In this document: positions 8,297 to 30,099 of the stretch, one piece after another
Numbering within the stretch: position 1 is the stretch's first letter
Layout: each line of letters begins with the position of its first letter
IMG/VR virus record: IMGVR_UViG_2585427621_000012
Source of the DNA: a virus
Taxonomy: Duplodnaviria > Heunggongvirae > Uroviricota > Caudoviricetes
Length of the DNA: 33,994 nucleotides
Direction: 5' to 3' (one strand)
Position numbers and translations under genes: made by a program
Notes under the pieces: generated by a model
Seen by the model: the letters and a program-made list of their open reading frames with translations, nothing else
The model's database searches: none
Told to the model about the DNA's origin: nothing

Positions 8297-8890
8297 CTAT
8301 TTGTCCCGGTTGGCTAAGGGATGACACAATTTATTCTTTGTCGCTGATGAGGGGAATTTTTTATAGAGCGTGGACAGGCCAATATCAAAAATCAGCGCCA
8401 CACGTTGACGAGATTCCCCCGCAGCCAGCAACCGTCCGACCTGCTCCCACTCACTCGTGGTGAGTTTCGGTCGTCTGCCACCAATACGACCTTTGGCTCT
8501 GGCCGCTTCCAGTCCGGCGCGTGTCCGCTCGACAATGAGTTCTCGCTCCATTTCTGCCAGGGCCCCCATCACATGAAAGAAAAAGCGCCCCATCGGCGTG
8601 CTGGTATCAATAGCATCCGTCAGGCTGCGAAAATTAACGCCGCGTTCGCGCAGTTCCTCAACCAGAATGACCAGATGCCGCATACTACGCCCCAGCCTAT
8701 CCAGCTTCCAGACTACCAGAGTGTCACCTGCTGATAATGTTCTGAGCAGTTTTTTCAGTCCCGGTCGGTCGGACTTCGTGCCGCTGATTTTATCCTCAAA
8801 ATCAGCTCACATCCTGCACACTCCAGCGCATTACGCTGCAATTCCGTGTTCTGGTCATTTGTTGACACGCGTACATAGCCAATAAGCATG
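8297..8890 (-). pseudogene. Serine DNA invertase (Gin/Hin/Pin/Cin family), frameshifted as sequenced
   Basis: N-terminus MLIGYVRVSTNDQNTELQRNALECAGCE (8890 downwards) and C-terminal 128-aa ORF (...VVWKLDRLGRSMRHLV...GRIGGRRPKLT...) are in different frames; one missing base in a T-run (plus-strand A-run 8788-8791) relative to the expected ...ELIFEDKISGTK... reading. Confidence 0.7.
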
Positions 8891-8916: not shown

Positions 8917-9450
8917 ATGATGCCAGTTACCCGTTATTTCTGCATTTTCATAAACGTTGGTTTGGGAGAAGGTTCGGCATTACCCGTTGGTGTGCCTGTT
9001 CCGTGGCCTTCAGCCACTCCGCCGACAGGCTGGCTGAAATGCAACGGGGCGGCTTTTTCTGCTGAAGAATACCCGGAACTGGCAAAGGTTTACCCGACAA
9101 ATAAATTGCCTGATTTACGTGGTGAGTTTATTCGTGGCTGGGATGACGGACGTGGAGTGGATAACGGAAGGGGATTATTGACGCTTCAGGACGGTGCGAT
9201 TGTCAGTCATAACCACTATTGGGGAATCTGGACTTCACGAACTAACGACCAGACTCTGGAAAGTTTTACAGGCACCACGATTTTAAAACAAATCACGCCC
9301 CTGTCTCCGGCCATTAACTTCGATAATTACCCAATTCCCAACCCGGCTATTACAGAGGGTGGTGTTGTTGCGGCAACGACTAAACCTGCAGGTGCGAATG
9401 AAACACGCCCACGAAATGTCGCTTTTAACTATATTGTGAGGGCTGCATAA
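8917..9450 (+). CDS. Alternative tail-fibre C-terminal cassette (Sv'-like), silent in this orientation
   Basis: Conserved tail-fibre C-terminal motifs (LPVGVPVPWPSATPPTGW..., LPDLRGEFIRGWDDGRGVD); no upstream constant part on this strand; the first 28 nt lie outside the invertible segment and are probably not coding. Confidence 0.6.
   Translation: MMPVTRYFCIFINVGLGEGSALPVGVPVPWPSATPPTGWLKCNGAAFSAEEYPELAKVYPTNKLPDLRGEFIRGWDDGRGVDNGRGLLTLQDGAIVSHNHYWGIWTSRTNDQTLESFTGTTILKQITPLSPAINFDNYPIPNPAITEGGVVAATTKPAGANETRPRNVAFNYIVRAA
8945..8970. repeat. Invertase crossover site, left (26 bp, hix/gix-like)
   Basis: TTTTCATAAACGTTGGTTTGGGAGAA; its reverse complement matches 10877-10902 at 20 of 26 positions, including an identical 15-bp block TTCTCCCAAACCAAC/G. 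Confidence 0.65.
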
Positions 9451-10052
9451 TGAATAACGCAGAATTAAACAGTGAATTAATTGCCACTATGGCAGGAGAA
9501 ATTACTGTTTATAACTTTGATGTCATGAGTCGGGAATATATTTCAGCTTCAACTGAATATCTTGCTATTGGTGTCGGCATTCCGGCATATTCCTGTTTAG
9601 ATGCCCCAGGCGCATACAAAGCTGGTTATGCAATCTGCCGTTCTGCAGATTTTAACTCATGGGAATATGTGCCAGACCATCGCGGTGAAATCGTCTTTAG
9701 CACCGAAACAGGAGAATCAAAAGAAATCACCGCTCCGGGTGATTACCCTGATAATACAACCACTATCGCCCCGTTAACGCCATACGATAAATGGGATGGT
9801 GAGAAATGGGTGACGGATACCGAAGCACAGCATAGCGCCGCAGTAGAAGCGGCAGAAACACAACGCCAGTCGCTGATTGATACTGCAATGGCTTCCATTA
9901 GTCTGATTCAGCTGAAATTACAGGCCGGACGGAAGCTGACGCAGGCAGAAACCAACCGACTTAACACGGTGCTGGATTACATTGACGCGGTGACGGCAAC
10001 AGATACCAGCACCGCGCCGGATGTCATCTGGCCTGAACTGCCGGAGGCGTAG
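9450..10052 (+). CDS. Tail fibre assembly protein, alternative copy (U'-like)
   Basis: 200-aa ORF with the conserved Tfa C-terminus (...LDYIDAVTATDTSTAPDVIWPELPEA); start overlaps the stop of the preceding cassette (TAATG). Confidence 0.75.
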   Translation: MNNAELNSELIATMAGEITVYNFDVMSREYISASTEYLAIGVGIPAYSCLDAPGAYKAGYAICRSADFNSWEYVPDHRGEIVFSTETGESKEITAPGDYPDNTTTIAPLTPYDKWDGEKWVTDTEAQHSAAVEAAETQRQSLIDTAMASISLIQLKLQAGRKLTQAETNRLNTVLDYIDAVTATDTSTAPDVIWPELPEA

Positions 10053-10496
10053 GCCATTCAATATCTGGCGCACTGGCGGTATCGACCAGCTCCAGTGCGT
10101 CCAGATAATCCAGCCACAAATTATATTGTGCCAGTTCCTCACCTTTCAGACGACCAATAGCGGCTTTACCGGGCCATTGCTTACTGTTCATGTATTCGTT
10201 GGCCTGGTTAATTAGTAGCTGTCTTTCTGATTCAGTAATTTCAATAAGTTCTTCATGCGTGGGTGGAGGAATATCTGCCACGCAGGCAGCCCATCATCTC
10301 CGCATGCGGAATTACTGTGACGTTCAGTCCATTAATACACTGATAATATGTTGTTCGCTTCAGCCATAAACTCACTGATAATATTTTGATTTACTTCCTT
10401 AGCGTCTGATAAATCCCATCCCTCTGATTTATATTTATCAATCATATCCACAGGGAAAAAAGCATTATGCCTTGCGCTATAAACATATTCGTTCAT
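10024..10496 (-). pseudogene. Tail fibre assembly protein for the active orientation, apparently split across frames
   Basis: N-terminal 54-codon ORF (10332-10496, MNEYVYSARHNAFFPVDMIDKYKSEGWDL...) and a GTG-initiated 85-aa ORF (10024-10281, conserved Tfa C-terminus ...LDYLDALELVDTASAPDIEWPTPP) are in different frames, separated by stops. Confidence 0.5.
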
Positions 10497-10516
10497 ATAA
10501 ATCACCCTGAATAAAA

Positions 10517-11716
10517 TTACTCACCAACAGCCCACCAACTGTAATTCATCGATACCGTGTCGCTGGTTGATGACGTTCTGTAAGCAGAATTAAAGCCGGT
10601 TAACGTTGGGCCTTCTGCAGTCATCACGAACCCTCGCCCAGCGCCTAAAGGCGCACCGCCATCACCAGAATGAGTAAGCATGGCGCAGTCCGCTTTTTTG
10701 GGGAAAGGGATGCTGAATGTAATTCTCATTGTTTGCGTCGATAATGTCGGCGTAACCGCACCACGACCATATTGCAGGATTTTACCGTTGGGTAATTTCA
10801 TCCATCCATCACCACTGGCAAAAGAGGCCATGTCCGGTATCTGATTTTCCCCTGTCCCCACATCCCGTTTTGCCGCTTCTCCCAAACCAAGGTATGCGAG
10901 AAGACCGGCAACATCCTTTCCACTCAAATGAGTCAGCGTCTCATCCAGTGGCTGCTTACCTGACAGCGCATTGTTAATGGTGGTGCTGAATTTCGGGTCA
11001 TTGTTAATGGCCGCGGCAATTTCTTTCAGTGTGTCCAGCGTGTCTGGCGCGCCGTTAATCAGAGCGGTAATAGCGGTCTGAACAAACTCAGTGGTCGCAA
11101 TCCGCGTGGTGTTATTTCCTGCGGCAGGCGTTGGCGCTTTTGGTTCTCCGGTAAATGTCGGATTATGTTTCTGCGCATACTGGGTATGAGGATCCTGTGC
11201 GGCAATGTGGTTTCTCATCTGGTCATCCACATACAGCCTTAATTCCAGGACTTTATCATCCACGTATTTACGGGTCGCCAGTACCACCGACGGGTCGATT
11301 TTCAGCGTGATGGCTTCGGTATTCGTGACAACCAGAATCATGCGGATAGTCTGGGTACGACCGCTGCCTTCCTGTAACTGCGGTTTGTACGTTTCCGGGC
11401 AGTTCGCCACCGCAATGAGTACGCCTTCATCATCATAAAGCCCAATCTCACGGATCCAGAATCCGCCCTCGTTCTCAGGGATGATTTGCTCCGCAATAAT
11501 CTGGCTCTGGTTGTTCGGGTCAACACTCAGAAGATTCAGCGGCGCGATGCGTTTCTGGTTAATAAGTTTTGTCTGTGCCGGGTCAGGTGTCGGCAAGACA
11601 CCATTTGCATCACCAACGGCCATTTGCGTCAGATTCAGCTTACTGCCGAGCATCGTCGCGTTAGCCAGCCGTGCCGCGCCCTGATTAGTCAGAATGGCGT
11701 AGTATTTCACTGTCAT
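10517..11716 (-). CDS. H: Tail fibre protein (gpH-like), active orientation
   Basis: 399-aa ORF; N-terminal about 250 aa resemble P2 gpH (...GGFWIREIGLYDDEGVLIAVAN..., ...NDPKFSTTINNALSGKQP...); C-terminal part differs and begins at the crossover site (..YLGLGEA..). Confidence 0.85.
   Translation of the reverse strand: MTVKYYAILTNQGAARLANATMLGSKLNLTQMAVGDANGVLPTPDPAQTKLINQKRIAPLNLLSVDPNNQSQIIAEQIIPENEGGFWIREIGLYDDEGVLIAVANCPETYKPQLQEGSGRTQTIRMILVVTNTEAITLKIDPSVVLATRKYVDDKVLELRLYVDDQMRNHIAAQDPHTQYAQKHNPTFTGEPKAPTPAAGNNTTRIATTEFVQTAITALINGAPDTLDTLKEIAAAINNDPKFSTTINNALSGKQPLDETLTHLSGKDVAGLLAYLGLGEAAKRDVGTGENQIPDMASFASGDGWMKLPNGKILQYGRGAVTPTLSTQTMRITFSIPFPKKADCAMLTHSGDGGAPLGAGRGFVMTAEGPTLTGFNSAYRTSSTSDTVSMNYSWWAVGE
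10877..10902. repeat. Invertase crossover site, right (26 bp), inside the tail-fibre gene
   Basis: TTCTCCCAAACCAAGGTATGCGAGAA; imperfect internal dyad (TTCTCCCAAACC / GGTATGCGAGAA) around a central AA; encodes YLGLGE at about residue 270 of H. Confidence 0.65.
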
Positions 11717-20649: not shown

Positions 20650-22422
20650 ATGACCATCACCACAGACACCACTCTTTTACACGACCCGCGTCGTCAGGCG
20701 GCGCTGCTGTACTGGCAGGGATTTTCCGTGCCGCAGATTGCCGCCATGTTGCAGATGAAACGCCCGACGGTGCAGAGCTGGAAACAGCGCGACGGCTGGG
20801 ACAGCGTTGCCCCCATCAGCCGTGTCGAAATGAGTCTGGAAGCGCGGCTGACCCAGCTCATCATCAAACCGCAGAAAACCGGCGGTGACTTCAAGGAAAT
20901 TGACCTGCTCGGACGCCAGATTGAACGACTGGCACGGGTAAACCGCTACAGCCAGACCGGCAACGAGGCAGACCTTAATCCGAACATCGCTAACCGCAAC
21001 AAAGGCGGGCGGCGCAAACCGAAAAAGAATTTTTTCAGTGACGAGGCTATCGAAAAGCTGGAGCAGATTTTCTTTGAGCAGTCTTTCGAATATCAGTTGC
21101 ACTGGTATCGCGCCGGGCTTGAGCACCGCATCCGCGATATCCTGAAATCCCGCCAGATTGGCGCGACGTTTTATTTTTCCCGCGAGGCGCTGCTGCGCGC
21201 CCTGAAAACCGGTCATAACCAGATTTTTCTGTCGGCCAGTAAAACGCAGGCGTATGTGTTCCGCGAATACATCATCGCCTTTGCCCGGCTGGTTGACGTT
21301 GACCTGACCGGTGACCCGATTGTCCTGGGCAATAACAGCGCAAAACTGATTTTTCTCGGCACCAACTCCAACACCGCGCAGAGCCATAACGGCGACCTGT
21401 ACGTCGACGAGATTTTCTGGATACCGAATTTTCAGGTACTGCGTAAGGTGGCATCAGGTATGGCCTCACAGAGTCACCTGCGCTCGACCTATTTCTCCAC
21501 CCCGTCCACGCTGGCGCACGACGCCTACCCGTTCTGGTCGGGTGAACTGTTCAACCGGGGACGCGCCAGCGCCGCCGAACGCGTGGAAATCGACGTCAGT
21601 CATAACGCTCTTGCCGGTGGGCTTCTCTGTGCGGACGGTCAGTGGCGGCAGATTGTCACCATTGAGGACGCCCTGAAAGGTGGCTGCACGCTGTTCGACA
21701 TTGAGCAGCTTAAACGCGAAAACAGCGCCGACGATTTTAAAAACCTGTTCATGTGTGAATTTGTTGACGACAAGGCGTCGGTGTTCCCGTTCGAGGAGCT
21801 GCAACGCTGCATGGTCGACACGCTGGAAGAATGGGAAGACTATGCGCCGTTTGCCGCGAATCCGTTCGGCTCCCGCCCGGTCTGGATTGGTTACGACCCG
21901 TCACACCGTGGCGACAGTGCCGGATGCGTGGTGCTGGCACCGCCGGTGGTGGCCGGTGGCAAATTCAGAATACTTGAGCGTCACCAGTGGAAAGGCATGG
22001 ACTTTGCCACCCAGGCTGAATCCATCCGCAAACTCACCGAAAAATACAACGTCGAATACATCGGAATTGATGCCACCGGCCTCGGTGTCGGCGTGTTCCT
22101 GCTCGTTCGCTCGTTCTATCCCGCCGCACGCGATATCCGCTACACGCCGGAAATGAAAACCGCAATGGTGCTCAAGGCAAAAGACGTTATTCGCCGTGGC
22201 TGTCTGGAATATGACGTCAGCGCCACCGACATCACCAGCTCGTTTATGGCTATCCGCAAGACCATGACCAGCAGCGGACGCAGCGCCACCTATGAGGCCA
22301 GCCGCAGCGAGGAAGCCAGCCACGCCGACCTCGCCTGGGCGACCATGCACGCCCTGTTAAATGAGCCACTCACCGCCGGTATCAGCACCCCGCTGACATC
22401 CACCATTCTGGAGTTTTACTGA
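20650..22422 (+). CDS. P: Terminase large (ATPase) subunit gpP
   Basis: 590-aa product starting MTITTDTTLLHD...; divergent from O, as in P2. Confidence 0.9.
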   Translation: MTITTDTTLLHDPRRQAALLYWQGFSVPQIAAMLQMKRPTVQSWKQRDGWDSVAPISRVEMSLEARLTQLIIKPQKTGGDFKEIDLLGRQIERLARVNRYSQTGNEADLNPNIANRNKGGRRKPKKNFFSDEAIEKLEQIFFEQSFEYQLHWYRAGLEHRIRDILKSRQIGATFYFSREALLRALKTGHNQIFLSASKTQAYVFREYIIAFARLVDVDLTGDPIVLGNNSAKLIFLGTNSNTAQSHNGDLYVDEIFWIPNFQVLRKVASGMASQSHLRSTYFSTPSTLAHDAYPFWSGELFNRGRASAAERVEIDVSHNALAGGLLCADGQWRQIVTIEDALKGGCTLFDIEQLKRENSADDFKNLFMCEFVDDKASVFPFEELQRCMVDTLEEWEDYAPFAANPFGSRPVWIGYDPSHRGDSAGCVVLAPPVVAGGKFRILERHQWKGMDFATQAESIRKLTEKYNVEYIGIDATGLGVGVFLLVRSFYPAARDIRYTPEMKTAMVLKAKDVIRRGCLEYDVSATDITSSFMAIRKTMTSSGRSATYEASRSEEASHADLAWATMHALLNEPLTAGISTPLTSTILEFY

Positions 22423-23456
22423 TGAGCAAGAAAAAAGGGAAAACACCGCAACCTGCGGCAAAAAAAATGACCGCCAGCGCCCCGAAAATGGAGGCATTCA
22501 CCTTTGGTGAACCGGTGCCGGTACTCGACCGCCGTGACATTCTGGATTACGTCGAGTGCATCAGTAACGGCAGATGGTATGAGCCACCGGTCAGCTTTAC
22601 CGGTCTGGCAAAAAGCCTGCGTGCTGCCGTACATCACAGCTCACCGATTTACGTCAAACGTAATATTCTGGCTTCAACGTTTATTCCGCACCCGTGGCTT
22701 TCCCAGCAGGATTTCAGCCGCTTTGTGCTGGATTTTCTGGTGTTCGGTAATGCGTTTCTGGAAAAGCGTTACAGCACCACCGGTAAGGTCATCAGACTGG
22801 AAACCTCACCGGCAAAATATACCCGCCGTGGCGTGGAGGAGGATGTTTACTGGTGGGTGCCGTCCTTCAACGAGCCGACAGCCTTCGCGCCCGGCTCCGT
22901 GTTTCACCTGCTGGAGCCGGATATTAATCAGGAGCTGTACGGCCTGCCGGAATATCTCAGCGCCCTTAATTCTGCCTGGCTGAATGAGTCGGCCACGCTG
23001 TTCCGCCGCAAGTATTACGAAAACGGCGCTCATGCCGGATATATCATGTACGTCACCGATGCCGTGCAGGATCGCAACGATATCGAAATGCTTCGCGAAA
23101 ACATGGTCAAGTCGAAAGGCCGCAACAACTTTAAAAATCTGTTTCTCTATGCCCCGCAGGGGAAAGCCGACGGCATTAAAATTATCCCGCTCAGTGAAGT
23201 GGCAACGAAGGACGATTTTTTTAATATCAAAAAAGCCAGCGCCGCTGACCTGCTGGACGCGCACCGCATCCCCTTTCAGTTGATGGGCGGCAAGCCGGAG
23301 AACGTCGGGTCGCTGGGTGATATTGAGAAAGTGGCAAAGGTCTTTGTCCGCAATGAGCTTATCCCGCTACAGGACAGGATCCGCGAGATAAACGGCTGGC
23401 TCGGTCAGGAGGTCATCCGCTTTAAAAACTACTCACTGGACACTGACAACGGCTGA
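22422..23456 (+). CDS. Q: Portal protein gpQ
   Basis: 344-aa ORF, P2 Q size; start overlaps the P stop. Confidence 0.9.
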   Translation: MSKKKGKTPQPAAKKMTASAPKMEAFTFGEPVPVLDRRDILDYVECISNGRWYEPPVSFTGLAKSLRAAVHHSSPIYVKRNILASTFIPHPWLSQQDFSRFVLDFLVFGNAFLEKRYSTTGKVIRLETSPAKYTRRGVEEDVYWWVPSFNEPTAFAPGSVFHLLEPDINQELYGLPEYLSALNSAWLNESATLFRRKYYENGAHAGYIMYVTDAVQDRNDIEMLRENMVKSKGRNNFKNLFLYAPQGKADGIKIIPLSEVATKDDFFNIKKASAADLLDAHRIPFQLMGGKPENVGSLGDIEKVAKVFVRNELIPLQDRIREINGWLGQEVIRFKNYSLDTDNG

Positions 23457-23625: not shown

Positions 23626-23644
23626 GTGCTTTCCCCGCCTCGCC
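23626..23644. other. cos site (19-nt cohesive end, GGCGAGGCGGGGAAAGCAC on the minus strand)
   Basis: Reverse complement of 23626-23644 equals the remembered P2 cohesive-end sequence; flanking sequence toward Q matches the remembered P2 left end. Confidence 0.75.
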
Positions 23645-23773: not shown

Positions 23774-25744
23774 TTAAAGGTCATCAATTAAACCTAAAGG
23801 CAAACCGTCCTCACCAACCGAGCTATAATGAGCGATAATATTCGAAAGTTCACCAGTAGAAAACGAATTAGGCAAATCATTATCAACTAATATAATCTGG
23901 CACGGAACATTTTTTCTTTCTGCTTTTTGAACTGTATTCAATAGTTGTTCATAAATATTTTGATACTTCATCGGATCTGACATTCCCTCAAGGTCATCCT
24001 CGAATGCAAGAGTTTCTTTTGAATATTTTTCCTTGGTCTGTTTCCCTAAATATTTGCCAACCGTATCAAATATCAAAAGTAAAGGATGGTTAACATTATG
24101 ATCTATTGCATAATCAAGAATAGACAAAAGATACCCAATAGAAGAAATAGTTCTCAAACCTCCGGATGTTATTTTAAAATATTCTTTTTCTCTTATAACA
24201 GGAATGTAATAGCTTTCAGAGATTTTTATCCCCGTTCTGTTTTTGATATTAATACCCTTCAAATACTGACTAAATCTATCACCCAAACCTTGTAAAATGC
24301 CCTCCATGCTAGGTGCGTTTTTCTTTAACGCCTCCAAGCGTTCAGTTAATGCTTCAATATCTTTTCTCAGTACCTGATACTTTTCAAGCAGTTCCTCTTG
24401 CTGGTTTCTAACCTTCAAATCTTTTACTAACTGCTCCCTAACCTTCTCATTTTTTGAGATCTCTTTAATATAAAAATCTCTCTGAGTCAAGAATGGTGTA
24501 ATCATTGACTGGCTTTCTTCGTCAATCAATTCTCTCAACTCGTCAAGTCGTTCATCTAATTCCTTTTTATAACCTGATTCTTTTTTTAATTTAAATGACA
24601 TTTCTGAGATCATGTCATTAATATTTCGTCTACGTCGACTAAGTGAATTCAACTCTTCATTAAGATCTTTTTCTGATGAAATTTCAAATGGAAAATCAGA
24701 ATCATCTATTTTAATGTGGCTATCACAGACTGGACAGGAAAATACTTCCTTATCCAATACACCAATGCGAGAATTTGCTGTTTTAATCGCTTTGAGTTTT
24801 TCAATATCATTATCATAGTCATTTTTTAACCGCGAATATTTATCAATCTTATCCTCAAGCGCAGTAATATTTAATATGCACTCTTTGTATTTAAGCGAAA
24901 TAAAATTGTGAGCATCTTTCAATTCTGTATACTGTATGGAATCCGCTTTCATATTTTTATCGAGAGCAGACAAACCTGCAACAAGTTCTTCTAAAACAAG
25001 ATCTATCCTATTAATCTCATCATCAATTGATTCAATCGTTTCATAGTCTGTATCGCGAAGAAATTCAGATATTATCTGATACTTCCTATTTAATTCCGTT
25101 ACTAAACTACTTTTTGCAGATATTTCACCTTGGAGTCTGGCGATGCTTTCATCCAACACATTGAACATGTATTTAAAAACTTCTTTCGTAAATGCGTAGC
25201 GGGACCAATCACCCAATCGCAAGAAAGATTTACTACCAATATCATCCTGACTTACATAAACAAATTTATATATATTTCTAAAACTTAACCTGCGCATCTG
25301 TGAATGAGCTTTAGAAGGAGACACCTTAATTTCAATCTTTGGAAAATTAAGACTATCAAGTAAAAACTCCGAAAAAACACCATCAACATTTGATAATGGG
25401 CTATAATTAGGAGCGTATTTTTTCGGAAAATGTTTATGTAAATCATCAAACTTACAACGATAAACTTCTATTGCTTTTTTATGATCATAGATATCTCTTA
25501 CGATTGTGAATACAGTATCATTGATCACTACTTCAAGAGCAGCATAGTTTACTGATGTTTTTATTTCATCTGCTAAATCTATAGAGCTAGCACCTAAAAG
25601 ATAATTAATAAACTCCAGAATGCTTGACTTACCTGTGTCAGAGTCTCCGTAGATAACATTGAGACCTTTATAAAAAGTAGTGACGTAGTTTTTACGAACG
25701 CCAACAAGAATCAAACTATTGATATTGAGATATGATTTCATCAT
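23774..25744 (-). CDS. Rad50/SbcC/SMC-like ABC ATPase with coiled coil and CxxC zinc hook (candidate defence ATPase, LmuB-like)
   Basis: 656 aa; Walker A GDSDTGKSS near the N-terminus; long low-complexity charged, helical middle with CPVCD at about residue 336; C-terminal signature-like TSGG, Walker B LLLIFD, and ILVDND; AT-rich codon usage. Confidence 0.7.
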   Translation of the reverse strand: MMKSYLNINSLILVGVRKNYVTTFYKGLNVIYGDSDTGKSSILEFINYLLGASSIDLADEIKTSVNYAALEVVINDTVFTIVRDIYDHKKAIEVYRCKFDDLHKHFPKKYAPNYSPLSNVDGVFSEFLLDSLNFPKIEIKVSPSKAHSQMRRLSFRNIYKFVYVSQDDIGSKSFLRLGDWSRYAFTKEVFKYMFNVLDESIARLQGEISAKSSLVTELNRKYQIISEFLRDTDYETIESIDDEINRIDLVLEELVAGLSALDKNMKADSIQYTELKDAHNFISLKYKECILNITALEDKIDKYSRLKNDYDNDIEKLKAIKTANSRIGVLDKEVFSCPVCDSHIKIDDSDFPFEISSEKDLNEELNSLSRRRRNINDMISEMSFKLKKESGYKKELDERLDELRELIDEESQSMITPFLTQRDFYIKEISKNEKVREQLVKDLKVRNQQEELLEKYQVLRKDIEALTERLEALKKNAPSMEGILQGLGDRFSQYLKGINIKNRTGIKISESYYIPVIREKEYFKITSGGLRTISSIGYLLSILDYAIDHNVNHPLLLIFDTVGKYLGKQTKEKYSKETLAFEDDLEGMSDPMKYQNIYEQLLNTVQKAERKNVPCQIILVDNDLPNSFSTGELSNIIAHYSSVGEDGLPLGLIDDL

Positions 25745-25853
25745 TTCTCCTTGAAGACTTGATTTATAACAGAGTTTAACTTAGAGGTAGGCAATGCTTG
25801 TAGCGGTAACAATGCTTCGGATAGTCGTTTTATTTCTTTAAAATATCCATCAG

Positions 25854-26252
25854 TCAATGAGCTAGCAAATTCCTTACCTTTTTCAGATAAAAATAATTTA
25901 ACACTCTCATTATTTTTTTCTCAGCTGAGAGCAATCCCCGCAATGACATAATTTTTATAAGATATTTCACTTTGGAATTGTCGAATAAGATATCTACATT
26001 TGTTGAAAAACTCTTTATTGTATAAGTTAACTGGGACTCGACACAAGCAGGCTTTTTCCCCGAAACTGTAAGAGCATAATCAATTTTTGATGGGTTTTTT
26101 ATCAGATACATAAAAATTTGTATTTTATTAATATCTAATGATAACACTCCTTTTTTGCTATGAGATAATATAGATATAGCAATGGCAAGCATAGCAAAAT
26201 TCAAGCTATACTCTTCATCAAGAGGAATATACGGCAAGTTATTTTTCTTCAT
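25854..26252 (-). CDS. Small middle-component protein of the three-gene module; as sequenced 132 aa, possibly about 170 aa if a frameshift at an A7 run is resolved
   Basis: ORF between the hydrolase and ATPase genes; a second open frame (25741-25912, ...SVKLFLSEKGKEFASSLTDGYFKEIKRLSEALLPLQ...) continues to a TGA overlapping the ATPase ATG. Confidence 0.55.
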   Translation of the reverse strand: MKKNNLPYIPLDEEYSLNFAMLAIAISILSHSKKGVLSLDINKIQIFMYLIKNPSKIDYALTVSGKKPACVESQLTYTIKSFSTNVDILFDNSKVKYLIKIMSLRGLLSAEKKIMRVLNYFYLKKVRNLLAH

Positions 26253-27462
26253 GATTACCTCGCCGTAATTGCTCCAAAGTTTCTACGCTGGTTTCAGATG
26301 ACCAGACAATATCCCTGTCATTTTTGTTAGCCAGTTGATGCAACATTCCTTTCTTATGTATCGTTTCTAAACTTTTTATAAGAGAATCTAACGACGACTT
26401 ATCCTCTTGGGCTATTCGTCTATGAACAGCAGCAATAAATTTATCTGGGGAAATTGAATTCGCGATATATTGCTCATACTCTTCCTGGTAAATCTCCCTT
26501 ATTTTAGAATACAAATGACCAAGTAGTTTCCTATCGTAATCACTCGTAAAAATATTTCTCGCAAGCTCAGCATTATAATAATATTCCTTTGCATGCATAG
26601 CGATATCCTGATGTATATCTGCGACAATCATTTTTAAGACGAAATACTCATTATCATATTGTTTCTCATCAGAAAAACGCTCAACACATATCTTCTTGGG
26701 TGCTTCTAAATTTATCTGCTGAATAAATTGCTTTACCGCAACAAACACTGTAGACGAGCTGTTTTCGGGCTTGCAAATTGAGCTATGCCCTTCATTAACT
26801 GCAATTGAGTTATTTCGTTCACTATCCATCGGTAATGCGCTTTTTTTATCAACTATAGTGTCATGAGAACCATAAACATATCTAGTGATAGGAAGTTTTT
26901 TGCTACAATTTATCCAGCGCCTATTCAACGTATCGGTCGCTTCACTTAACAATCCAAGATCTACTAACTGAGCATTTGAAGATACCATTGAAGTTATATT
27001 CGCCAATTTAGCACCAAAGTGAGGGACTGCTAACGAAATGAATCCAATTATATTAGATTGTTCCTCATGCTCAACTTTTTTTAGAATTAGATTTTTTGAT
27101 ATTACCCCCCCCATACTATGGGCGATTATTATAATTCGAGAGTAATCACTTAGCGTTACCCTAATCTCAGTATACAATAACTCAGCTATTTCATCAGTTG
27201 GTAAATTTCTCTCTAACTTATTTTTCTTAGAGAAAATACGAGCCCATAATCCTGACGTTTTAGCATACGTTTGTGTAAATTTGGTGAAATAATTGAAACA
27301 TGCAATATCAAATACATTGCCAATGTCTTCATCTTCTGCTAATAGTTTTGGAAATGAAGTTTCTTTATTAAAGTTCCATGTTTCCAAACCACCATTTAAT
27401 CCATGTACAAATAGTATCAGGCTATCTTTTTTCTCGTGGCTTATCCATTCAACCATGCTCAT
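26239..27462 (-). CDS. Lipase-like alpha/beta-hydrolase (serine hydrolase) with C-terminal helical domain (candidate effector, LmuA-like)
   Basis: 407 aa; oxyanion-hole motif LILFVHGLNG, nucleophile elbow AHSMGG (AxSxG), downstream GSHDT (Asp) and NEGHSS (His) consistent with a Ser-Asp-His triad; about 170-aa helical C-terminus; AT-rich. Confidence 0.7.
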   Translation of the reverse strand: MSMVEWISHEKKDSLILFVHGLNGGLETWNFNKETSFPKLLAEDEDIGNVFDIACFNYFTKFTQTYAKTSGLWARIFSKKNKLERNLPTDEIAELLYTEIRVTLSDYSRIIIIAHSMGGVISKNLILKKVEHEEQSNIIGFISLAVPHFGAKLANITSMVSSNAQLVDLGLLSEATDTLNRRWINCSKKLPITRYVYGSHDTIVDKKSALPMDSERNNSIAVNEGHSSICKPENSSSTVFVAVKQFIQQINLEAPKKICVERFSDEKQYDNEYFVLKMIVADIHQDIAMHAKEYYYNAELARNIFTSDYDRKLLGHLYSKIREIYQEEYEQYIANSISPDKFIAAVHRRIAQEDKSSLDSLIKSLETIHKKGMLHQLANKNDRDIVWSSETSVETLEQLRRGNHEEK

Positions 27463-27551: not shown

Positions 27552-29834
27552 CTACCACTCACGCTGTCTGTCAAAAAAGTCGATATCGTTATCAAATTTA
27601 AAACGCTTATGCCCAAAATCCAAAACAGCTCCGCGAGCGAGAGCTTCAAGCTCCCAATAACTAGCCTGAATGTCACTTTGTGCAAGAAGAACCTTAATTT
27701 TCGGGATAGTCTTTCTCTCCTGCCTTGTCAACCGGGCGGATGGGGCAGGAAAGTAGCTTCGACCATTGAAAGGGGTAAAGCTCTGCTGTGAACGATTACT
27801 GCATTTCAGTTCATTACTCAATAAGTCTCTAAGTACCTTCATAATGCCTGGCTCGGTCCAACTTAGAATCCCTTCATCTATTAAATTTAACACCGCTGCA
27901 GCATGCTCAGTCGGTGTGGGAGCCGGTAACGAAGTATCACCACCGGTGAGTTTTCCACAGTTATTGACAGGACTCCGAGGCGCGGCGATGCCGCTTTTTA
28001 AAGTCAAAGGCTCAACGACCGGAACTTTCGGCACAATGCGCCAGTCCGTCGTTCTGGTGATATGAATATGACGCGCGCCGAGATGCGGCGCGTAAATGCC
28101 GACCACTCTCTCGACTTCTTCCTCGTACTCGTTAACGTCATCCGACGGGCTACGGGCGACCCTGACAGTCTGACAATCGCGCGGGACATTTGCCCCACCC
28201 TGCGCGCTGATATACAACGCAAAATCACCACTGTCTGCGGCAGCGCGAGCAGCCTCGACGCGTTCGTCAAACTCATCAGCAATACTGACGCCGCGAGGCA
28301 ATTTGCGTAGTTCACGGTAAGCCCCCATTGTCGGCAGTCCAACCGTTTTAAATTGCGGAATGCGCCACGTTGACGCCCATGCGGTAACAGCCGCGGCAGT
28401 ATCTTTAAGCGGCTTACCGGTATCGTTATCGAGCTGACCATCCAGTGCATAGCCGTCGATGTTTTTTGAAATGTATTTCGCGATATATCCCGCAGCACCG
28501 CCCCGGTTAAGGTGTTTTGCCTGAAAACGGTTTCGCGCAGCTCCTCTTTCGTCTCCATCCTCTTTGAGCGCGTAGCGACGCATGATTTCGATAATCTGGT
28601 TACGCTGGCGTGGATTACAAAAAAGCATCATATGCCAGTGCGGCGTTCCGTCGTGGTGTGGCTCGACGACACGCAAACCGTAGACCTGTAAATCATTATC
28701 CTTGAATGCCGTGCGCATCAGGCTCCAGATGCGGCAGAGATAACGCTGCGCATCCTTTGGATTAAATGCCTCATCGTTCCAGCCGTGATTAAGCTGAACG
28801 GTTTTACTTTCGCCTTTTCTGACCTGACGTGTCGGGTGATACTTTGACGGCGCGGTCAGCGTGATAAACATCCCCACATCACCCTCTGCGGCGGCGTAAC
28901 GCTCAATACCGGCAATGGTGTTCATCAGCTCCATCCGGCGAATTTCAGGATTAGAAATACTGCCCATCACCTTACTGATAAGGTCGATGCGCTCGCCGGT
29001 TTCCCTGTTTTCAAGGTCACACGATTTAAGAAATTCCAGATTTGCCTGGCGGCGCGCACGCACATCACGAATGGCGTGTTTACTGGCATAAGGAGAACGG
29101 TCTTTATTGACCTCCCCGACAGCTATCAGTAACGCTTCATGCCAGCGCATACGCTGGCCTTTAAGCTGATGAGTCCACCACTCATCGTTAAACAGACGGG
29201 CAATGGCAGAATATGCCTGCCTCGTGGTCATCTGCCCTTTACGGTATATTTTCCAGTAGAGAGGGGAAATATTGAAAGCACGTGCAGCGCCAGCAACATG
29301 ACCATAGAGGTGAGCCTGCGCCTCATCCGTAAACAGCGATTCTTTTTCGCCATGCGCATCCACCCAGGCATCACTGAGTTCCCCATACATCATGAAAAGC
29401 TGCGATGAGATACGGGCAGCAAACTTTTTCAGCTCCTTGTCATTCATTCCCGGCAGGCGCGCATAGTGGTCACGCTCTGCCAGAAACAGTAACGACGCGT
29501 CGGTGTTCATTTCATGGCGCTGATTCACACGCTCAATGCGCGGCCATAAACGACGCTGAAAAGTGGATGTGAGGAAATAAAACCCGTGCACCGGGCTTTT
29601 ATTGCGCCGGATGTGGTCATAGCGTGAAGTAAACAGCGAGCGCAAAAAGTAAGGCAGGCGGTTAATCGTGGATAAAACACCTTGCACCTGACGCATCTCG
29701 TCACGTGTAAGGGGTCTTTCGCGCCCGACGGCCTCGCGTGGCGCGTTCCATGCATAAGCACCGGTAAACGCCTTACCGGTGCCTGCAGCAAATGCTGACG
29801 GAGGGACAAAACGCCCGGAGGCTTTAACGGCCAT
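27552..29834 (-). CDS. A: Replication initiation protein gpA (rolling-circle nickase)
   Basis: About 760 aa, recognised as P2 gpA (...GFYFLTSTFQRRLWPRIERVN...HDGTPHWHMMLF...); start chosen at MAVKASG (ATG 29834) for the smaller overlap with the upstream ORF; the track start at 29876 is an alternative. Confidence 0.8.
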   Translation of the reverse strand: MAVKASGRFVPPSAFAAGTGKAFTGAYAWNAPREAVGRERPLTRDEMRQVQGVLSTINRLPYFLRSLFTSRYDHIRRNKSPVHGFYFLTSTFQRRLWPRIERVNQRHEMNTDASLLFLAERDHYARLPGMNDKELKKFAARISSQLFMMYGELSDAWVDAHGEKESLFTDEAQAHLYGHVAGAARAFNISPLYWKIYRKGQMTTRQAYSAIARLFNDEWWTHQLKGQRMRWHEALLIAVGEVNKDRSPYASKHAIRDVRARRQANLEFLKSCDLENRETGERIDLISKVMGSISNPEIRRMELMNTIAGIERYAAAEGDVGMFITLTAPSKYHPTRQVRKGESKTVQLNHGWNDEAFNPKDAQRYLCRIWSLMRTAFKDNDLQVYGLRVVEPHHDGTPHWHMMLFCNPRQRNQIIEIMRRYALKEDGDERGAARNRFQAKHLNRGGAAGYIAKYISKNIDGYALDGQLDNDTGKPLKDTAAAVTAWASTWRIPQFKTVGLPTMGAYRELRKLPRGVSIADEFDERVEAARAAADSGDFALYISAQGGANVPRDCQTVRVARSPSDDVNEYEEEVERVVGIYAPHLGARHIHITRTTDWRIVPKVPVVEPLTLKSGIAAPRSPVNNCGKLTGGDTSLPAPTPTEHAAAVLNLIDEGILSWTEPGIMKVLRDLLSNELKCSNRSQQSFTPFNGRSYFPAPSARLTRQERKTIPKIKVLLAQSDIQASYWELEALARGAVLDFGHKRFKFDNDIDFFDRQREW

Positions 29835-30099
29835 ATGAGCCAAAAGCCTCTGAGCAACGCTTGCTGAGTTGCTCAACCTGCGCGTTTAAATCAGCAAAAG
29901 ACTTTGCGCTTCCGGTCAGAATATCGTGATGCATCAGGCCGGAAACGAGCTGGCTTAATTTCGGGTAATAACCAACCACCGCCAGCCATTCCTGACCGGC
30001 GTTTTTACCGCTTTCCGCTCTCTTTTTCTCGTGGAGAATAAACTGAAAGCTGTCACTGGTAACGACATAACGTTCGCCAATTTCAATACGAATACTCAT
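29824..30099 (-). CDS. Hypothetical early-operon protein (P2 orf83-like position)
   Basis: 91-aa ORF tightly packed between a zinc-finger ORF and A; function unknown. Confidence 0.55.
   Translation of the reverse strand: MSIRIEIGERYVVTSDSFQFILHEKKRAESGKNAGQEWLAVVGYYPKLSQLVSGLMHHDILTGSAKSFADLNAQVEQLSKRCSEAFGSYGR

What the first reader, a model, noticed from the sequence alone, without database searches (positions are those of the whole stretch)
23774..25744. ATPase carries a CxxC zinc-hook-like motif in mid coiled coil
CPVCD sits near the middle of the helical, charged region between the N-terminal Walker A and the C-terminal signature and Walker B motifs. That is the Rad50/SbcC architecture, where the hook mediates dimerisation at the coiled-coil apex, and suggests a DNA-end or DNA-structure sensor.
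Basis: seen in the sequence. Interest (0 to 1): 0.5.

Follow-up and report, generated by a model that had tools for sequence, protein, structure and literature searches.

The report
Lamassu defence ATPase with zinc hook
The CxxC motif is real and sits at the tip of the coiled coil, but the protein is LmuB, the Rad50-like sensor of a Lamassu anti-phage system carried as cargo by a P2-like prophage, and zinc hooks in this family have already been published, so the finding is correct but ordinary.

Summary
**Observation: confirmed.** ORF 23774..25744(-) encodes a 656-aa ABC-type ATPase.
- Motifs: Walker A G33-S40, signature TSGGLRT 526-532, Walker B LLLIFD 555-560.
- It has a single CPVC at residues 337-340. 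Chance expectation is 0.04.
- CP[IVL]C is invariant in 115/115 homologues. A mid-protein CxxC is present in 110/110 remote representatives.
- An AlphaFold2 model puts the motif in a 31-residue non-helical tip between two long helices (199-326 and 358-476).

**Identity.**
- The protein is LmuB (PADLOC E=1.5e-235).
- It is the last gene of a three-gene type II ("short") Lamassu / ABC-3C operon.
- lmuA encodes an alpha/beta-hydrolase ("lipase") effector with a CTD8 domain. lmuC encodes the MC4 middle component.
- The closest solved structures are LmuB chains, followed by Rad50.
- The cassette is AT-rich cargo between gpA and cos of a P2-like prophage almost identical to that of E. coli O157:H7 TW14359.

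**Prior knowledge.** LmuB zinc hooks, lipase-type Lamassu with a hook, loss of defence in a hook mutant, and DNA-end sensing are all published.

**Side observations.**
- lmuC in this window carries a one-base homopolymer deletion. This may be a sequencing artefact.
- Sister clades carry two CxxC motifs.

The parts
23774..25744 (-). lmuB: a 656-aa SMC/Rad50-like ABC ATPase, the sensor subunit of Lamassu. It is identical to RefSeq WP_001325828.1.
   Evidence: PADLOC LmuB PDLC03862, E=1.5e-235, covering residues 2-656. Foldseek top hits are LmuB chains 9uxh_F, 9hqx_B, 9hqu_A and 9nyg_B, at E 1e-21 to 1e-16. Profile A1 matches PDB 9hqu_A at E=2.3e-11. RefSeq annotation.
24725..24736 (-). CPVC (Cys337-Pro-Val-Cys340), the zinc-hook motif.
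   Evidence: Only CxxC in the protein. Invariant CP[IVL]C in 115/115 homologues. Aligned to the CPMC of Salmonella LmuB 9hqu_A.
24674..24766 (-). Non-helical tip (residues 327-357) of the coiled coil. It holds the hook and a short beta-hairpin.
   Evidence: DSSP on the AF2 model shows strands at 335-336 and 343-344. pLDDT here is 61-68, against about 90 in the arms.
24767..25150 (-). Ascending coiled-coil arm, residues 199-326, with helix breaks at 231-236 and 265-269.
   Evidence: AF2 secondary structure. Low Pro/Gly content and 35% charged residues.
24317..24673 (-). Descending coiled-coil arm, residues 358-476.
   Evidence: AF2 secondary structure. 45% charged residues and the strongest heptad periodicity in the protein.
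25625..25648 (-). Walker A, GDSDTGKS (residues 33-40, Lys39).
   Evidence: G33, D34, T37, G38, K39 and S40 are invariant.
24149..24169 (-). ABC signature-like motif, TSGGLRT (residues 526-532).
   Evidence: S527-T532 are invariant in 115/115 homologues.
24062..24082 (-). Deviant Walker B, LLLIFD-T (residues 555-561). Asp560 is followed by an invariant Thr instead of the catalytic Glu.
   Evidence: This fits the published short-Lamassu consensus hhhhD[Q/S/T/E] (PMC12663957).
25854..26252 (-). lmuC (ABC-3C middle component 4). Here it is truncated to 132 aa by a one-base deletion; the intact protein is 170 aa and its stop overlaps the lmuB start.
   Evidence: PADLOC LmuC E=4.9e-34 and Pfam MC4 PF20290 E=1.9e-16. 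Comparison with TW14359. phrog_1894 is matched over positions 1-131 of 170.
25913..25919 (-). Homopolymer tract: T7 on the + strand, A7 in the coding sense. It is A8 in 94 of the 95 E. coli complete genomes that carry the cassette, and it is the site of the lmuC frameshift.
26239..27462 (-). lmuA: a 407-aa effector with an N-terminal alpha/beta-hydrolase (lipase/esterase-type) domain and a C-terminal ABC-3C CTD8 domain. The hydrolase has a nucleophile elbow AHSMGG with Ser116; Asp201 and His226 are candidate triad residues.
   Evidence: PADLOC LmuA PDLC03851 E=3.5e-108. Pfam CTD8 E=1.7e-35, DUF676 E=4e-09, PGAP1 and Abhydrolase_1. Motif positions; the triad assignment is inferred.
23626..23644 (-). 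Exact match to the 19-nt P2 cos sequence, as I recalled it from memory. It places the cassette at the gpA-cos end of the phage genome.
   Evidence: 0 mismatches, and 0.02 matches expected by chance.
22422..23456 (+). Phage portal gene (P2 gpQ type), the left boundary of the cargo locus.
   Evidence: RefSeq annotation of the identical locus.
27552..29876 (-). Replication endonuclease gene (P2 gpA type), the right boundary of the cargo locus.
   Evidence: RefSeq annotation of the identical locus. GC content rises from 0.32-0.39 inside the cassette to 0.54.

Best explanation
**What it is.** The ORF is lmuB, the SMC/Rad50-like sensor ATPase of a three-gene type II ('short') Lamassu / ABC-3C anti-phage system. 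The gene order is lmuA-lmuC-lmuB. The system is AT-rich cargo in the gpA-cos variable locus of a P2-like prophage of E. coli.

**Shown here.**
- Family membership of all three genes.
- Conservation of the operon in other genera.
- Invariance of CPxC.
- The predicted position of CPxC at the tip of an antiparallel coiled coil.
- Fold similarity to solved LmuB chains.

**Inferred from published work on homologues.**
- Two LmuB protomers pair at the coiled-coil tip. Each gives two cysteines to one shared Zn2+, as in a Rad50-type hook.
- The folded coiled coils, together with LmuC, hold the C-terminal domain (CTD8) of one LmuA next to the hook region. This keeps the effector monomeric and inactive.
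- When the ATP-bound LmuB heads clamp a DNA end or a phage replication intermediate, LmuA is released and oligomerises.
- The alpha/beta-hydrolase (lipase-type) domain of LmuA then attacks a cellular target, probably membrane lipid, and aborts the infection.
- The Walker B Asp-Thr suggests slow ATP turnover.

**Caveat for this window.** lmuC is frameshifted, so this copy may be inactive unless the deletion is a sequencing error.
For: - **Family assignment.** PADLOC gives LmuB E=1.5e-235, LmuC E=4.9e-34 and LmuA E=3.5e-108. Pfam gives MC4, CTD8 and DUF676/PGAP1/Abhydrolase_1.
- **Operon conservation.** The same three-gene operon sits next to 53%- and 43%-identical LmuB homologues in Pseudomonas syringae and Enterobacter kobei, outside P2 prophages.
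- **Motif conservation.** CP[IVL]C is invariant in 115/115 homologues. A mid-protein CxxC is present in 110/110 remote representatives.
- **Structure.** The AF2 model has a helix-tip-helix arrangement with CPVC in the tip. Foldseek top hits are LmuB chains of solved Lamassu complexes, then Rad50. The profile alignment to Salmonella LmuB 9hqu_A puts CPiC on CPMC.
- **Literature, zinc hook.** Many LmuB proteins carry a zinc hook 'CPxCG or similar' (PMC10586767). A hook mutant of Salmonella LmuB loses phage protection, and LmuA and LmuC sit next to the juxtaposed hooks (bioRxiv 10.1101/2025.03.14.643221). The Bacillus LmuB hooks are juxtaposed at the distal end (bioRxiv 10.1101/2025.06.23.660979).
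- **Literature, function.** An E. coli lipase-type Lamassu with a Zn hook protects against Lambda-vir and needs the Walker A Lys and the lipase His. Lamassu senses dsDNA ends (PMC12663957).
- **Genomic context.** Exact match to the P2 cos sequence recalled from memory, 130 nt from the lmuB stop. GC is 0.32-0.35, against about 0.55 in the prophage. The cassette is in 95 of 5426 complete E. coli genomes, between the portal and replication endonuclease genes.
Against: - No zinc, dimer or activity data exist for this protein.
- The tip has only moderate model confidence (pLDDT 61-68), and the model is a monomer.
- Even in the cryo-EM maps of homologues the zinc atom was not resolved.
- The tested homologues carry nuclease effectors, apart from the Ec-Lipase system. 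The sequence relationship of Ec-Lipase to this cassette could not be established; its residue numbering differs (K42/H215 against K39/H226 here).
- lmuC is truncated in this window, and lmuC deletion abolishes defence in tested Lamassu systems (bioRxiv 10.1101/2022.05.11.491447).
- V. cholerae LmuB works without any hook, so the hook is not universally required in the family.
Confidence: 0.88

Rival explanations
1. The protein is a genuine SbcC/Rad50 DNA-repair ATPase, as several database names say ('exonuclease SbcC', 'double-stranded DNA repair protein Rad50'). It would work with an Mre11/SbcD nuclease on hairpins and breaks.
For: Source names. There are weak matches to Rad50 heads (3aux_A, E=1.4e-4) and, not significantly, to the P. 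furiosus hook fragment 1l8d_A (E=0.26). Rad50 chains follow the LmuB chains in the fold search. phrog_77, 'SbcC-like', matches at E=2.7e-10 over the coiled coil only.
Against: - There is no SbcD/Mre11 gene in the locus. The neighbours are LmuC and a hydrolase-CTD8 LmuA.
- NCBIfam Rad50/SMC models score 15-26 bits against cut-offs of 567-1000.
- Walker B lacks the catalytic Glu.
- The protein is 656 aa with coiled-coil arms of about 125 residues.
- The LmuB profile matches end to end at 781 bits.
Confidence: 0.02
2. The CPVC is not an intermolecular hook. It would be the remnant or half of an intramolecular zinc knuckle or zinc ribbon that merely stiffens the tip or contacts LmuA/LmuC, and LmuB would dimerise through the coiled coils and heads.
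For: - 66 of 110 remote representatives carry two motifs, CPxC-x12-15-CxLC. That is the spacing of a Cys4 zinc ribbon within one chain.
- The tip here is 31 residues with a beta-hairpin, which is longer than a minimal Rad50 hook.
- PMC12663957 notes 0, 1 or 2 copies and 'divergent dimerization strategies'.
- V. cholerae LmuB dimerises with no hook at all.
Against: - In this clade only C337, P338 and C340 are invariant in the tip. No third or fourth Cys or His is conserved: H343 is present in 13/115 and C335 in 20/115. One chain therefore cannot complete a tetrahedral site.
- In the solved single-CxxC LmuB proteins from Salmonella and Bacillus, the two protomers' motifs are juxtaposed.
Confidence: 0.08
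3. In this particular window the cassette is a decaying, non-functional copy. The lmuC frameshift removes the last third of LmuC and uncouples lmuB translation, so the hook-bearing ATPase no longer acts in defence.
For: - There is a one-base deletion in an A8 tract. LmuC is 132 aa with a 19-residue aberrant tail, against 170 aa.
- The same allele is present in one complete genome, OkiPb01683.
- lmuC is required in tested systems.
Against: - 94 of 95 complete genomes have the intact allele.
- Outside the invertible segment the window differs from TW14359 by only 2 substitutions but 4 single-base deletions. All four are in runs of 2-8 identical bases, and one breaks the invertase gene and is seen in 0 of 529 genomes. 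That pattern is typical of homopolymer under-calling.
- lmuA and lmuB are identical to the intact copies.
Confidence: 0.3
4. The CPxC is a redox-active dithiol of the thioredoxin, glutaredoxin or DsbA type.
For: CPxC is also the active-site pattern of thiol-disulfide oxidoreductases (general knowledge).
Against: There is no thioredoxin fold. The motif lies in a short tip between two helices of about 120 residues each. No Pfam thioredoxin-like hit was found. All fold matches are SMC/Rad50-like.
Confidence: 0.01

Closest known systems
Lamassu 'Ec-Lipase' (short Lamassu clade H) of E. coli, Haudiquet et al., PNAS 2025 (PMC12663957)
   Same: Both are three-gene short Lamassu systems from E. coli with a lipase-type LmuA, an LmuC and an LmuB carrying a Zn hook. 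Published defence against Lambda-vir depends on the Walker A Lys and the lipase catalytic His. The Walker B class is hhhhD[Q/S/T/E].
   Different: The sequence of the tested system was not available here. The published residue numbers (LmuB K42, LmuA H215) differ from this cassette (K39, H226), and none of the 116 listed homologues with a recognisable Walker A has that Lys at position 42. It is therefore probably a different subclade. The hook itself was not among the mutants described in the passages I read.
Salmonella enterica LmuACB (PDB 9HQU, 9HQX), Li et al., bioRxiv 10.1101/2025.03.14.643221
   Same: LmuB is about 660 aa with a single CPxC that aligns with CPVC here. It is among the top fold matches. 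The hooks of two protomers are juxtaposed, LmuC and the LmuA C-terminal domain bind beside them, and a hook mutant loses phage protection. The helix break at 265-269 here lies where that LmuB folds its coiled coil (266-276).
   Different: The effector is a Cap4-type nuclease rather than an alpha/beta hydrolase. Identity over the Foldseek structural alignment is about 15%. Walker B is D-Q there and D-T here. It is not prophage cargo as far as I know.
Rad50 / SbcC (Mre11-Rad50, SbcCD)
   Same: Both have an ABC head split by an antiparallel coiled coil with a CxxC at the apex. In Rad50/SbcC two protomers share one Zn2+, and the complex recognises DNA ends and hairpins. It is the proposed evolutionary source of Lamassu (PMC12663957).
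   Different: There is no Mre11/SbcD partner. The coiled coil is far shorter. The catalytic Glu after the Walker B Asp is replaced by Thr. Family models score far below their cut-offs. The output is release of a toxic effector, not DNA repair.
Vibrio cholerae DdmABC (Lamassu Vc-Cap4; PDB 9NY5, 9NYG)
   Same: It has the same three-component logic and an A1B2C1 complex, with dsDNA-end sensing and activation by LmuA oligomerisation. Its chain 9nyg_B is a fold match.
   Different: Its LmuB has lost the zinc hook. The effector is a Cap4 nuclease.
P2 Old and Tin, and other cargo of the P2 variable locus next to cos
   Same: They occupy the same genomic slot, between the replication gene A and cos/portal, in P2-like phages. 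This slot is a known hotspot for anti-phage genes (Rousset et al. 2022, as cited; the P2 gene map is from my own knowledge).
   Different: The proteins are unrelated. Old is an ABC-ATPase-Toprim nuclease without a coiled coil or a hook.

Membership tests
Lamassu / ABC-3C (type II, short) | An LmuB SMC-like ATPase of about 650 aa with Walker A, an ABC signature and a deviant Walker B. | tested here: met
   PADLOC PDLC03862 at 781 bits over residues 2-656. Motifs and their invariance. Fold matches to LmuB chains.
Lamassu / ABC-3C (type II, short) | An LmuA with a variable N-terminal effector domain and a family-specific C-terminal domain (CTD1-12). | tested here: met
   PADLOC LmuA E=3.5e-108. 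Pfam CTD8 E=1.7e-35 at residues 265-389, and alpha/beta-hydrolase families at residues 10-208.
Lamassu / ABC-3C (type II, short) | A small middle component, LmuC, encoded between lmuA and lmuB. | tested here: inconclusive
   The gene is present and recognised (PADLOC LmuC, Pfam MC4). It is frameshifted to 132 aa in this window, and is intact at 170 aa in 94/95 genomes. The deletion may be a sequencing error.
Lamassu / ABC-3C (type II, short) | A co-directional operon, lmuA-lmuC-lmuB, conserved across taxa. | tested here: met
   All three genes are on the minus strand with overlapping or adjacent ends. The same order is found in Pseudomonas syringae and Enterobacter kobei.
Lamassu / ABC-3C (type II, short) | Confers phage or plasmid defence by abortive infection. 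| not testable with these tools
   Known only from the literature on homologues.
Rad50-type zinc hook | A CxxC at the apex of an antiparallel coiled coil. | tested here: met
   In the AF2 model, helices 199-326 and 358-476 flank the tip 327-357, which holds CPVC. This is a monomer model and tip pLDDT is 61-68.
Rad50-type zinc hook | The motif is conserved while its surroundings vary. | tested here: met
   115/115 invariant, with variable flanks. 110/110 remote representatives carry it.
Rad50-type zinc hook | Two protomers share one Zn2+ through four cysteines. | not testable with these tools
   The only support is indirect. One chain has just two conserved ligands, and the hooks are juxtaposed in solved single-CxxC LmuB dimers.
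Rad50 / SbcC proper | Sequence membership of the Rad50/SbcC families. | tested here: not met
   NCBIfam Rad50 models score 15-23 bits against cut-offs of 700-1000. Pfam SMC_N scores 22.9 bits against a cut-off of 40.
Rad50 / SbcC proper | An adjacent Mre11/SbcD nuclease partner. | tested here: not met
   The neighbours are LmuC, LmuA, the portal gene and gpA.
Rad50 / SbcC proper | A catalytic Glu after the Walker B Asp. | tested here: not met
   D560 is followed by T561, which is invariant in 115/115.

The most novel reading that the evidence does not exclude
In this LmuB clade the single CPxC may be what remains of a two-knuckle (Cys4) zinc ribbon that sister clades still carry (CPxC-x12-15-CxLC). 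Loss of the second knuckle would then have converted an intramolecular zinc site into an intermolecular, Rad50-like hook. Alternatively, the two remaining ligand positions could be supplied by LmuC or the LmuA C-terminal domain, both of which bind beside the hook. In that case zinc occupancy or thiol oxidation at the tip could itself gate effector release, giving a metal- or redox-responsive trigger in addition to DNA-end sensing.
Probability: 0.08. Interest if true: 0.45.

Novelty: already known. Interest (0 to 1): 0.15.

Why it matters
The result explains a gene that public sources name 'AAA family ATPase' or 'exonuclease SbcC'. It is the sensor of a prophage-borne abortive-infection system in 95 of 5426 complete E. 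coli genomes. The listed carriers are mostly O157:H7 strains, plus laboratory strain C and AS19. The practical value is better annotation. It is also a reminder that P2-like prophages in pathogenic E. coli carry a lipase-armed Lamassu that could affect phage typing or phage therapy. The zinc hook adds nothing new to the field: its presence, its variable copy number and its requirement for defence in a homologue have all been published.

Tried and rejected
- **Single-sequence PDB searches.** phmmer of LmuB and of LmuA against PDB sequences found nothing. Only the 74-sequence profile reached the solved LmuB.
- **Homemade coiled-coil test.** A Fourier test for heptad periodicity gave only weak discrimination. 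It showed a clear minimum at the hook and peaks in both arms, but also signal in the head. I rely on the AF2 secondary structure instead.
- **Link to Ec-Lipase.** I tried to tie the cassette to the experimentally tested 'Ec-Lipase' system. No accession or supplement text was available, so the relationship stays open.
- **Dimer modelling.** No dimer or zinc-bound model could be built, because the structure tool folds single chains only and returns no coordinates. The distance of CPVC from the heads was therefore judged from the helix boundaries.
- **Readings rejected.** I rejected a Rad50/SbcC repair protein, a thioredoxin-like redox motif, and Wadjet JetC or Gabija GajA. The last two gave only marginal PADLOC hits, at E about 6e-4.
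- **Uninformative papers.** The H-NS preprint and the P2/P4 hotspot paper mention Lamassu but say nothing specific about this cassette.
Full report
**1.

ORF 23774..25744 on the minus strand encodes 656 residues. Its motifs are:
- Walker A, GDSDTGKS, at residues 33-40.
- An ABC signature-like TSGGLRT at 526-532.
- Walker B, LLLIFD, at 555-560.
- CPVC at 337-340 (window 24725-24736), nine residues past the midpoint.

With five cysteines in the whole protein, 0.04 CxxC motifs are expected by chance, and this is the only one. Among 115 full-length homologues of 43-87% identity, C337, P338 and C340 are invariant, while the ten positions on either side vary freely.

An exhaustive profile search of 1.84 billion cluster representatives found 3247 relatives. 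All 110 full-length proteins among the best 150 have a CxxC in the middle third.

**2. Where the motif sits**

An AlphaFold2 model was built on a 74-sequence alignment (mean pLDDT 86, pTM 0.68).
- Mixed alpha/beta head halves lie at 1-198 and 477-656.
- A long helix runs from 199 to 326, with breaks at 231-236 and 265-269. A second runs from 358 to 476.
- Between them is a 31-residue non-helical tip with a small beta-hairpin around the CPVC.

The two arms are of nearly equal length, 128 and 119 residues, so the tip is the apex of an antiparallel coiled coil. Confidence at the tip is moderate (pLDDT 61-68), as expected for a monomer modelled without metal or partner. A crude heptad-periodicity test agrees but discriminates weakly.

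**3. What the protein is**

All three genes of the cassette are recognised as Lamassu components.
- PADLOC identifies the ORF as LmuB (PDLC03862, E=1.5e-235, end to end).
- The two genes upstream on the same strand are LmuC (25854..26252, E=4.9e-34) and LmuA (26239..27462, E=3.5e-108).
- Pfam calls LmuC 'ABC-3C middle component 4'.
- Pfam finds two parts in LmuA: an N-terminal alpha/beta hydrolase (DUF676, PGAP1-like, Abhydrolase_1) and the ABC-3C C-terminal domain CTD8.
- LmuA has a nucleophile elbow, AHSMGG (Ser116), with candidate Asp201 and His226. The triad assignment is inferred.

Structure comparisons agree.
- Foldseek against the PDB returns LmuB chains of solved Lamassu complexes first (9uxh_F, 9hqx_B, 9hqu_A, 9nyg_B and 9ux7_A, at E 1e-21 to 1e-15). 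Rad50, SMC and JetC follow.
- The sequence profile reaches Salmonella LmuB 9hqu_A at E=2.3e-11 over nearly the whole length. That alignment places the family's CPiC on that protein's CPMC.

The operon is conserved elsewhere. The order hydrolase-CTD8, MC4 (169 aa), LmuB is found next to homologues in Pseudomonas syringae and Enterobacter kobei, in unrelated mobile contexts.

This is therefore a type II, 'short' Lamassu system with a lipase-type effector.

**4. Why it is not Rad50/SbcC itself**

Several sources name homologues 'exonuclease SbcC' or 'Rad50'. The evidence does not support that.
- NCBIfam Rad50 and SMC models score 15-26 bits against cut-offs of 567-1000.
- No SbcD/Mre11 gene is present.
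- The residue after the Walker B aspartate is an invariant threonine rather than the catalytic glutamate.

The last point fits the published short-Lamassu consensus hhhhD[Q/S/T/E] and the reported slow or moderate ATPase activity (PMC12663957; bioRxiv 10.1101/2025.06.23.660979).

**5. Genomic context**

The window is a complete P2-like prophage between yegQ and yegR. It is almost identical to the prophage of E. coli O157:H7 TW14359.

The Lamassu cassette has GC 0.32-0.39, against about 0.55 for the phage. It lies between the replication endonuclease gene (gpA type) and an exact match to the 19-nt P2 cos sequence (recalled from memory) at 23626-23644. The portal gene follows. From my knowledge of the P2 map, this is the slot that holds tin and old in P2 itself. 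Millman et al. also note Lamassu-family members in prophage defence hotspots.

The cassette occurs in 95 of 5426 complete E. coli genomes. The listed carriers are mostly O157:H7, plus strains C and AS19. It is absent from the deposited phage genomes searched.

**6. How it most likely works**

The following steps are taken from published work on homologues and are inferred for this protein.
- Two LmuB protomers pair at the tip. The solved single-CxxC LmuB proteins of Salmonella and Bacillus show the two hooks juxtaposed, although zinc density was not resolved.
- A hook mutant of Salmonella LmuB loses phage protection.
- The coiled coils fold back. LmuC and the LmuA C-terminal domain bind beside the hooks and sequester one LmuA.
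- dsDNA ends or phage replication intermediates, bound by the ATP-engaged heads, release LmuA. It then oligomerises and becomes active.
- In the E. coli 'Ec-Lipase' Lamassu, which also has a Zn hook, protection against Lambda-vir needs the Walker A lysine and the lipase histidine. Overexpression is toxic unless the lipase is inactivated.

Here one chain offers only two conserved metal ligands. This favours a shared, intermolecular site.

**7. A nuance**

In the exhaustive search, the 31 best-scoring full-length representatives and 13 more distant ones have one CxxC, like this protein. The other 66 have two, as CPxC-x12-15-CxLC. That is the spacing of a Cys4 zinc ribbon within one chain.

The variation in copy number (0, 1 or 2) has already been reported (PMC12663957). 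It leaves a small chance that the apex chemistry in this clade differs from a textbook Rad50 hook.

**8. State of this copy**

Compared with TW14359 and 93 other genomes, lmuC in the window lacks one A of an A8 tract (plus-strand T run at 25913-25919). This truncates LmuC from 170 to 132 residues and removes the overlap of its stop codon with the lmuB start. One complete genome, OkiPb01683, shares the allele.

Outside the invertible tail-fibre segment, the window differs from TW14359 by two substitutions and four one-base deletions. All four deletions are in runs of 2-8 identical bases. One of them breaks the DNA invertase gene and is found in none of 529 genomes. This pattern looks like homopolymer under-calling, so I do not treat the lmuC frameshift as established biology.

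**9. Verdict**

However, the object is a recognised member of a well-studied defence family. The feature pointed out has been described, surveyed across the family and mutated in a homologue. Novelty: already known. Interest: low.

Noticed in passing
window 25913-25919 (lmuC, 25854..26252 minus strand): A one-base deletion in an A8 tract frameshifts lmuC, giving 132 aa instead of 170 aa. It also separates the lmuC stop from the lmuB start. The intact allele is in 94 of 95 complete E. coli genomes; only OkiPb01683 (NZ_AP042515.1) shares the deletion.
   Followed up: yes
window 8297-8889 (minus strand), deletion at about 8797: A Din-family (Gin/Cin/Pin-like) DNA invertase gene is split by a one-base deletion in a 5-base run. 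MLIGYVRVSTNDQ... is in one frame and the rest is in another. None of 529 E. coli genomes with this gene shares the deletion, so a sequencing error is likely.
   Followed up: yes
window 8945-10902: The tail-fibre C-terminus and assembly-gene segment is inverted relative to TW14359. It is bounded by 27-nt inverted repeats (8945-8971 and 10876-10902) that resemble cix/gix crossover sites. This is an invertible host-range switch caught in the other orientation. A cluster of differences at 10279-10350 hints at a second internal recombination site.
   Followed up: partly
window 8271 and 32343: Two further one-base deletions relative to TW14359, in short base runs (T4 to T3, and CC to C). Both are intergenic. 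Together with the two frameshifts, all four indels are deletions in runs of 2-8 identical bases, against only two substitutions in about 32 kb.
   Followed up: yes
window 23626-23644: An exact match to the 19-nt P2 cos sequence as I recalled it from memory. It lies between the portal gene and the lmuB stop, so the defence cassette sits at the very end of the packaged phage genome.
   Followed up: yes
LmuB residues 560-561 (window 24062-24067): The Walker B Asp is followed by an invariant Thr instead of the catalytic Glu, in 115/115 homologues. Among remote representatives Ser and Thr dominate. This implies slow ATP hydrolysis, or none.
   Followed up: partly
remote LmuB relatives P0167-P0268: 66 of 110 full-length representatives have two CxxC motifs 15-19 residues apart at the coiled-coil tip (24 in one case), as CPxC...CxLC, a zinc-ribbon-like Cys4 arrangement. 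The 31 best-scoring full-length representatives (and 13 more distant ones) have only the first motif, like the window protein.
   Followed up: partly
window 23774-27462: GC content is 0.32-0.35, against about 0.55 in the prophage. A 2026 preprint (10.64898/2026.09.05.749240) reports H-NS silencing of AT-rich defence loci, including a Lamassu system in ECOR28, so this cassette may be H-NS-repressed in the lysogen. PHROGs v4 lists all three proteins (phrog_1637, 1894, 1846) as 'unknown function'.
   Followed up: no
protein cluster P0005: A 522-aa sequence, 100% identical to LmuB residues 2-523 and so lacking the signature and Walker B motifs, represents a cluster of 1268 sequences named 'exonuclease SbcC [Escherichia coli]'. 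This is either a common truncated call or a misleading name in public databases.
   Followed up: no
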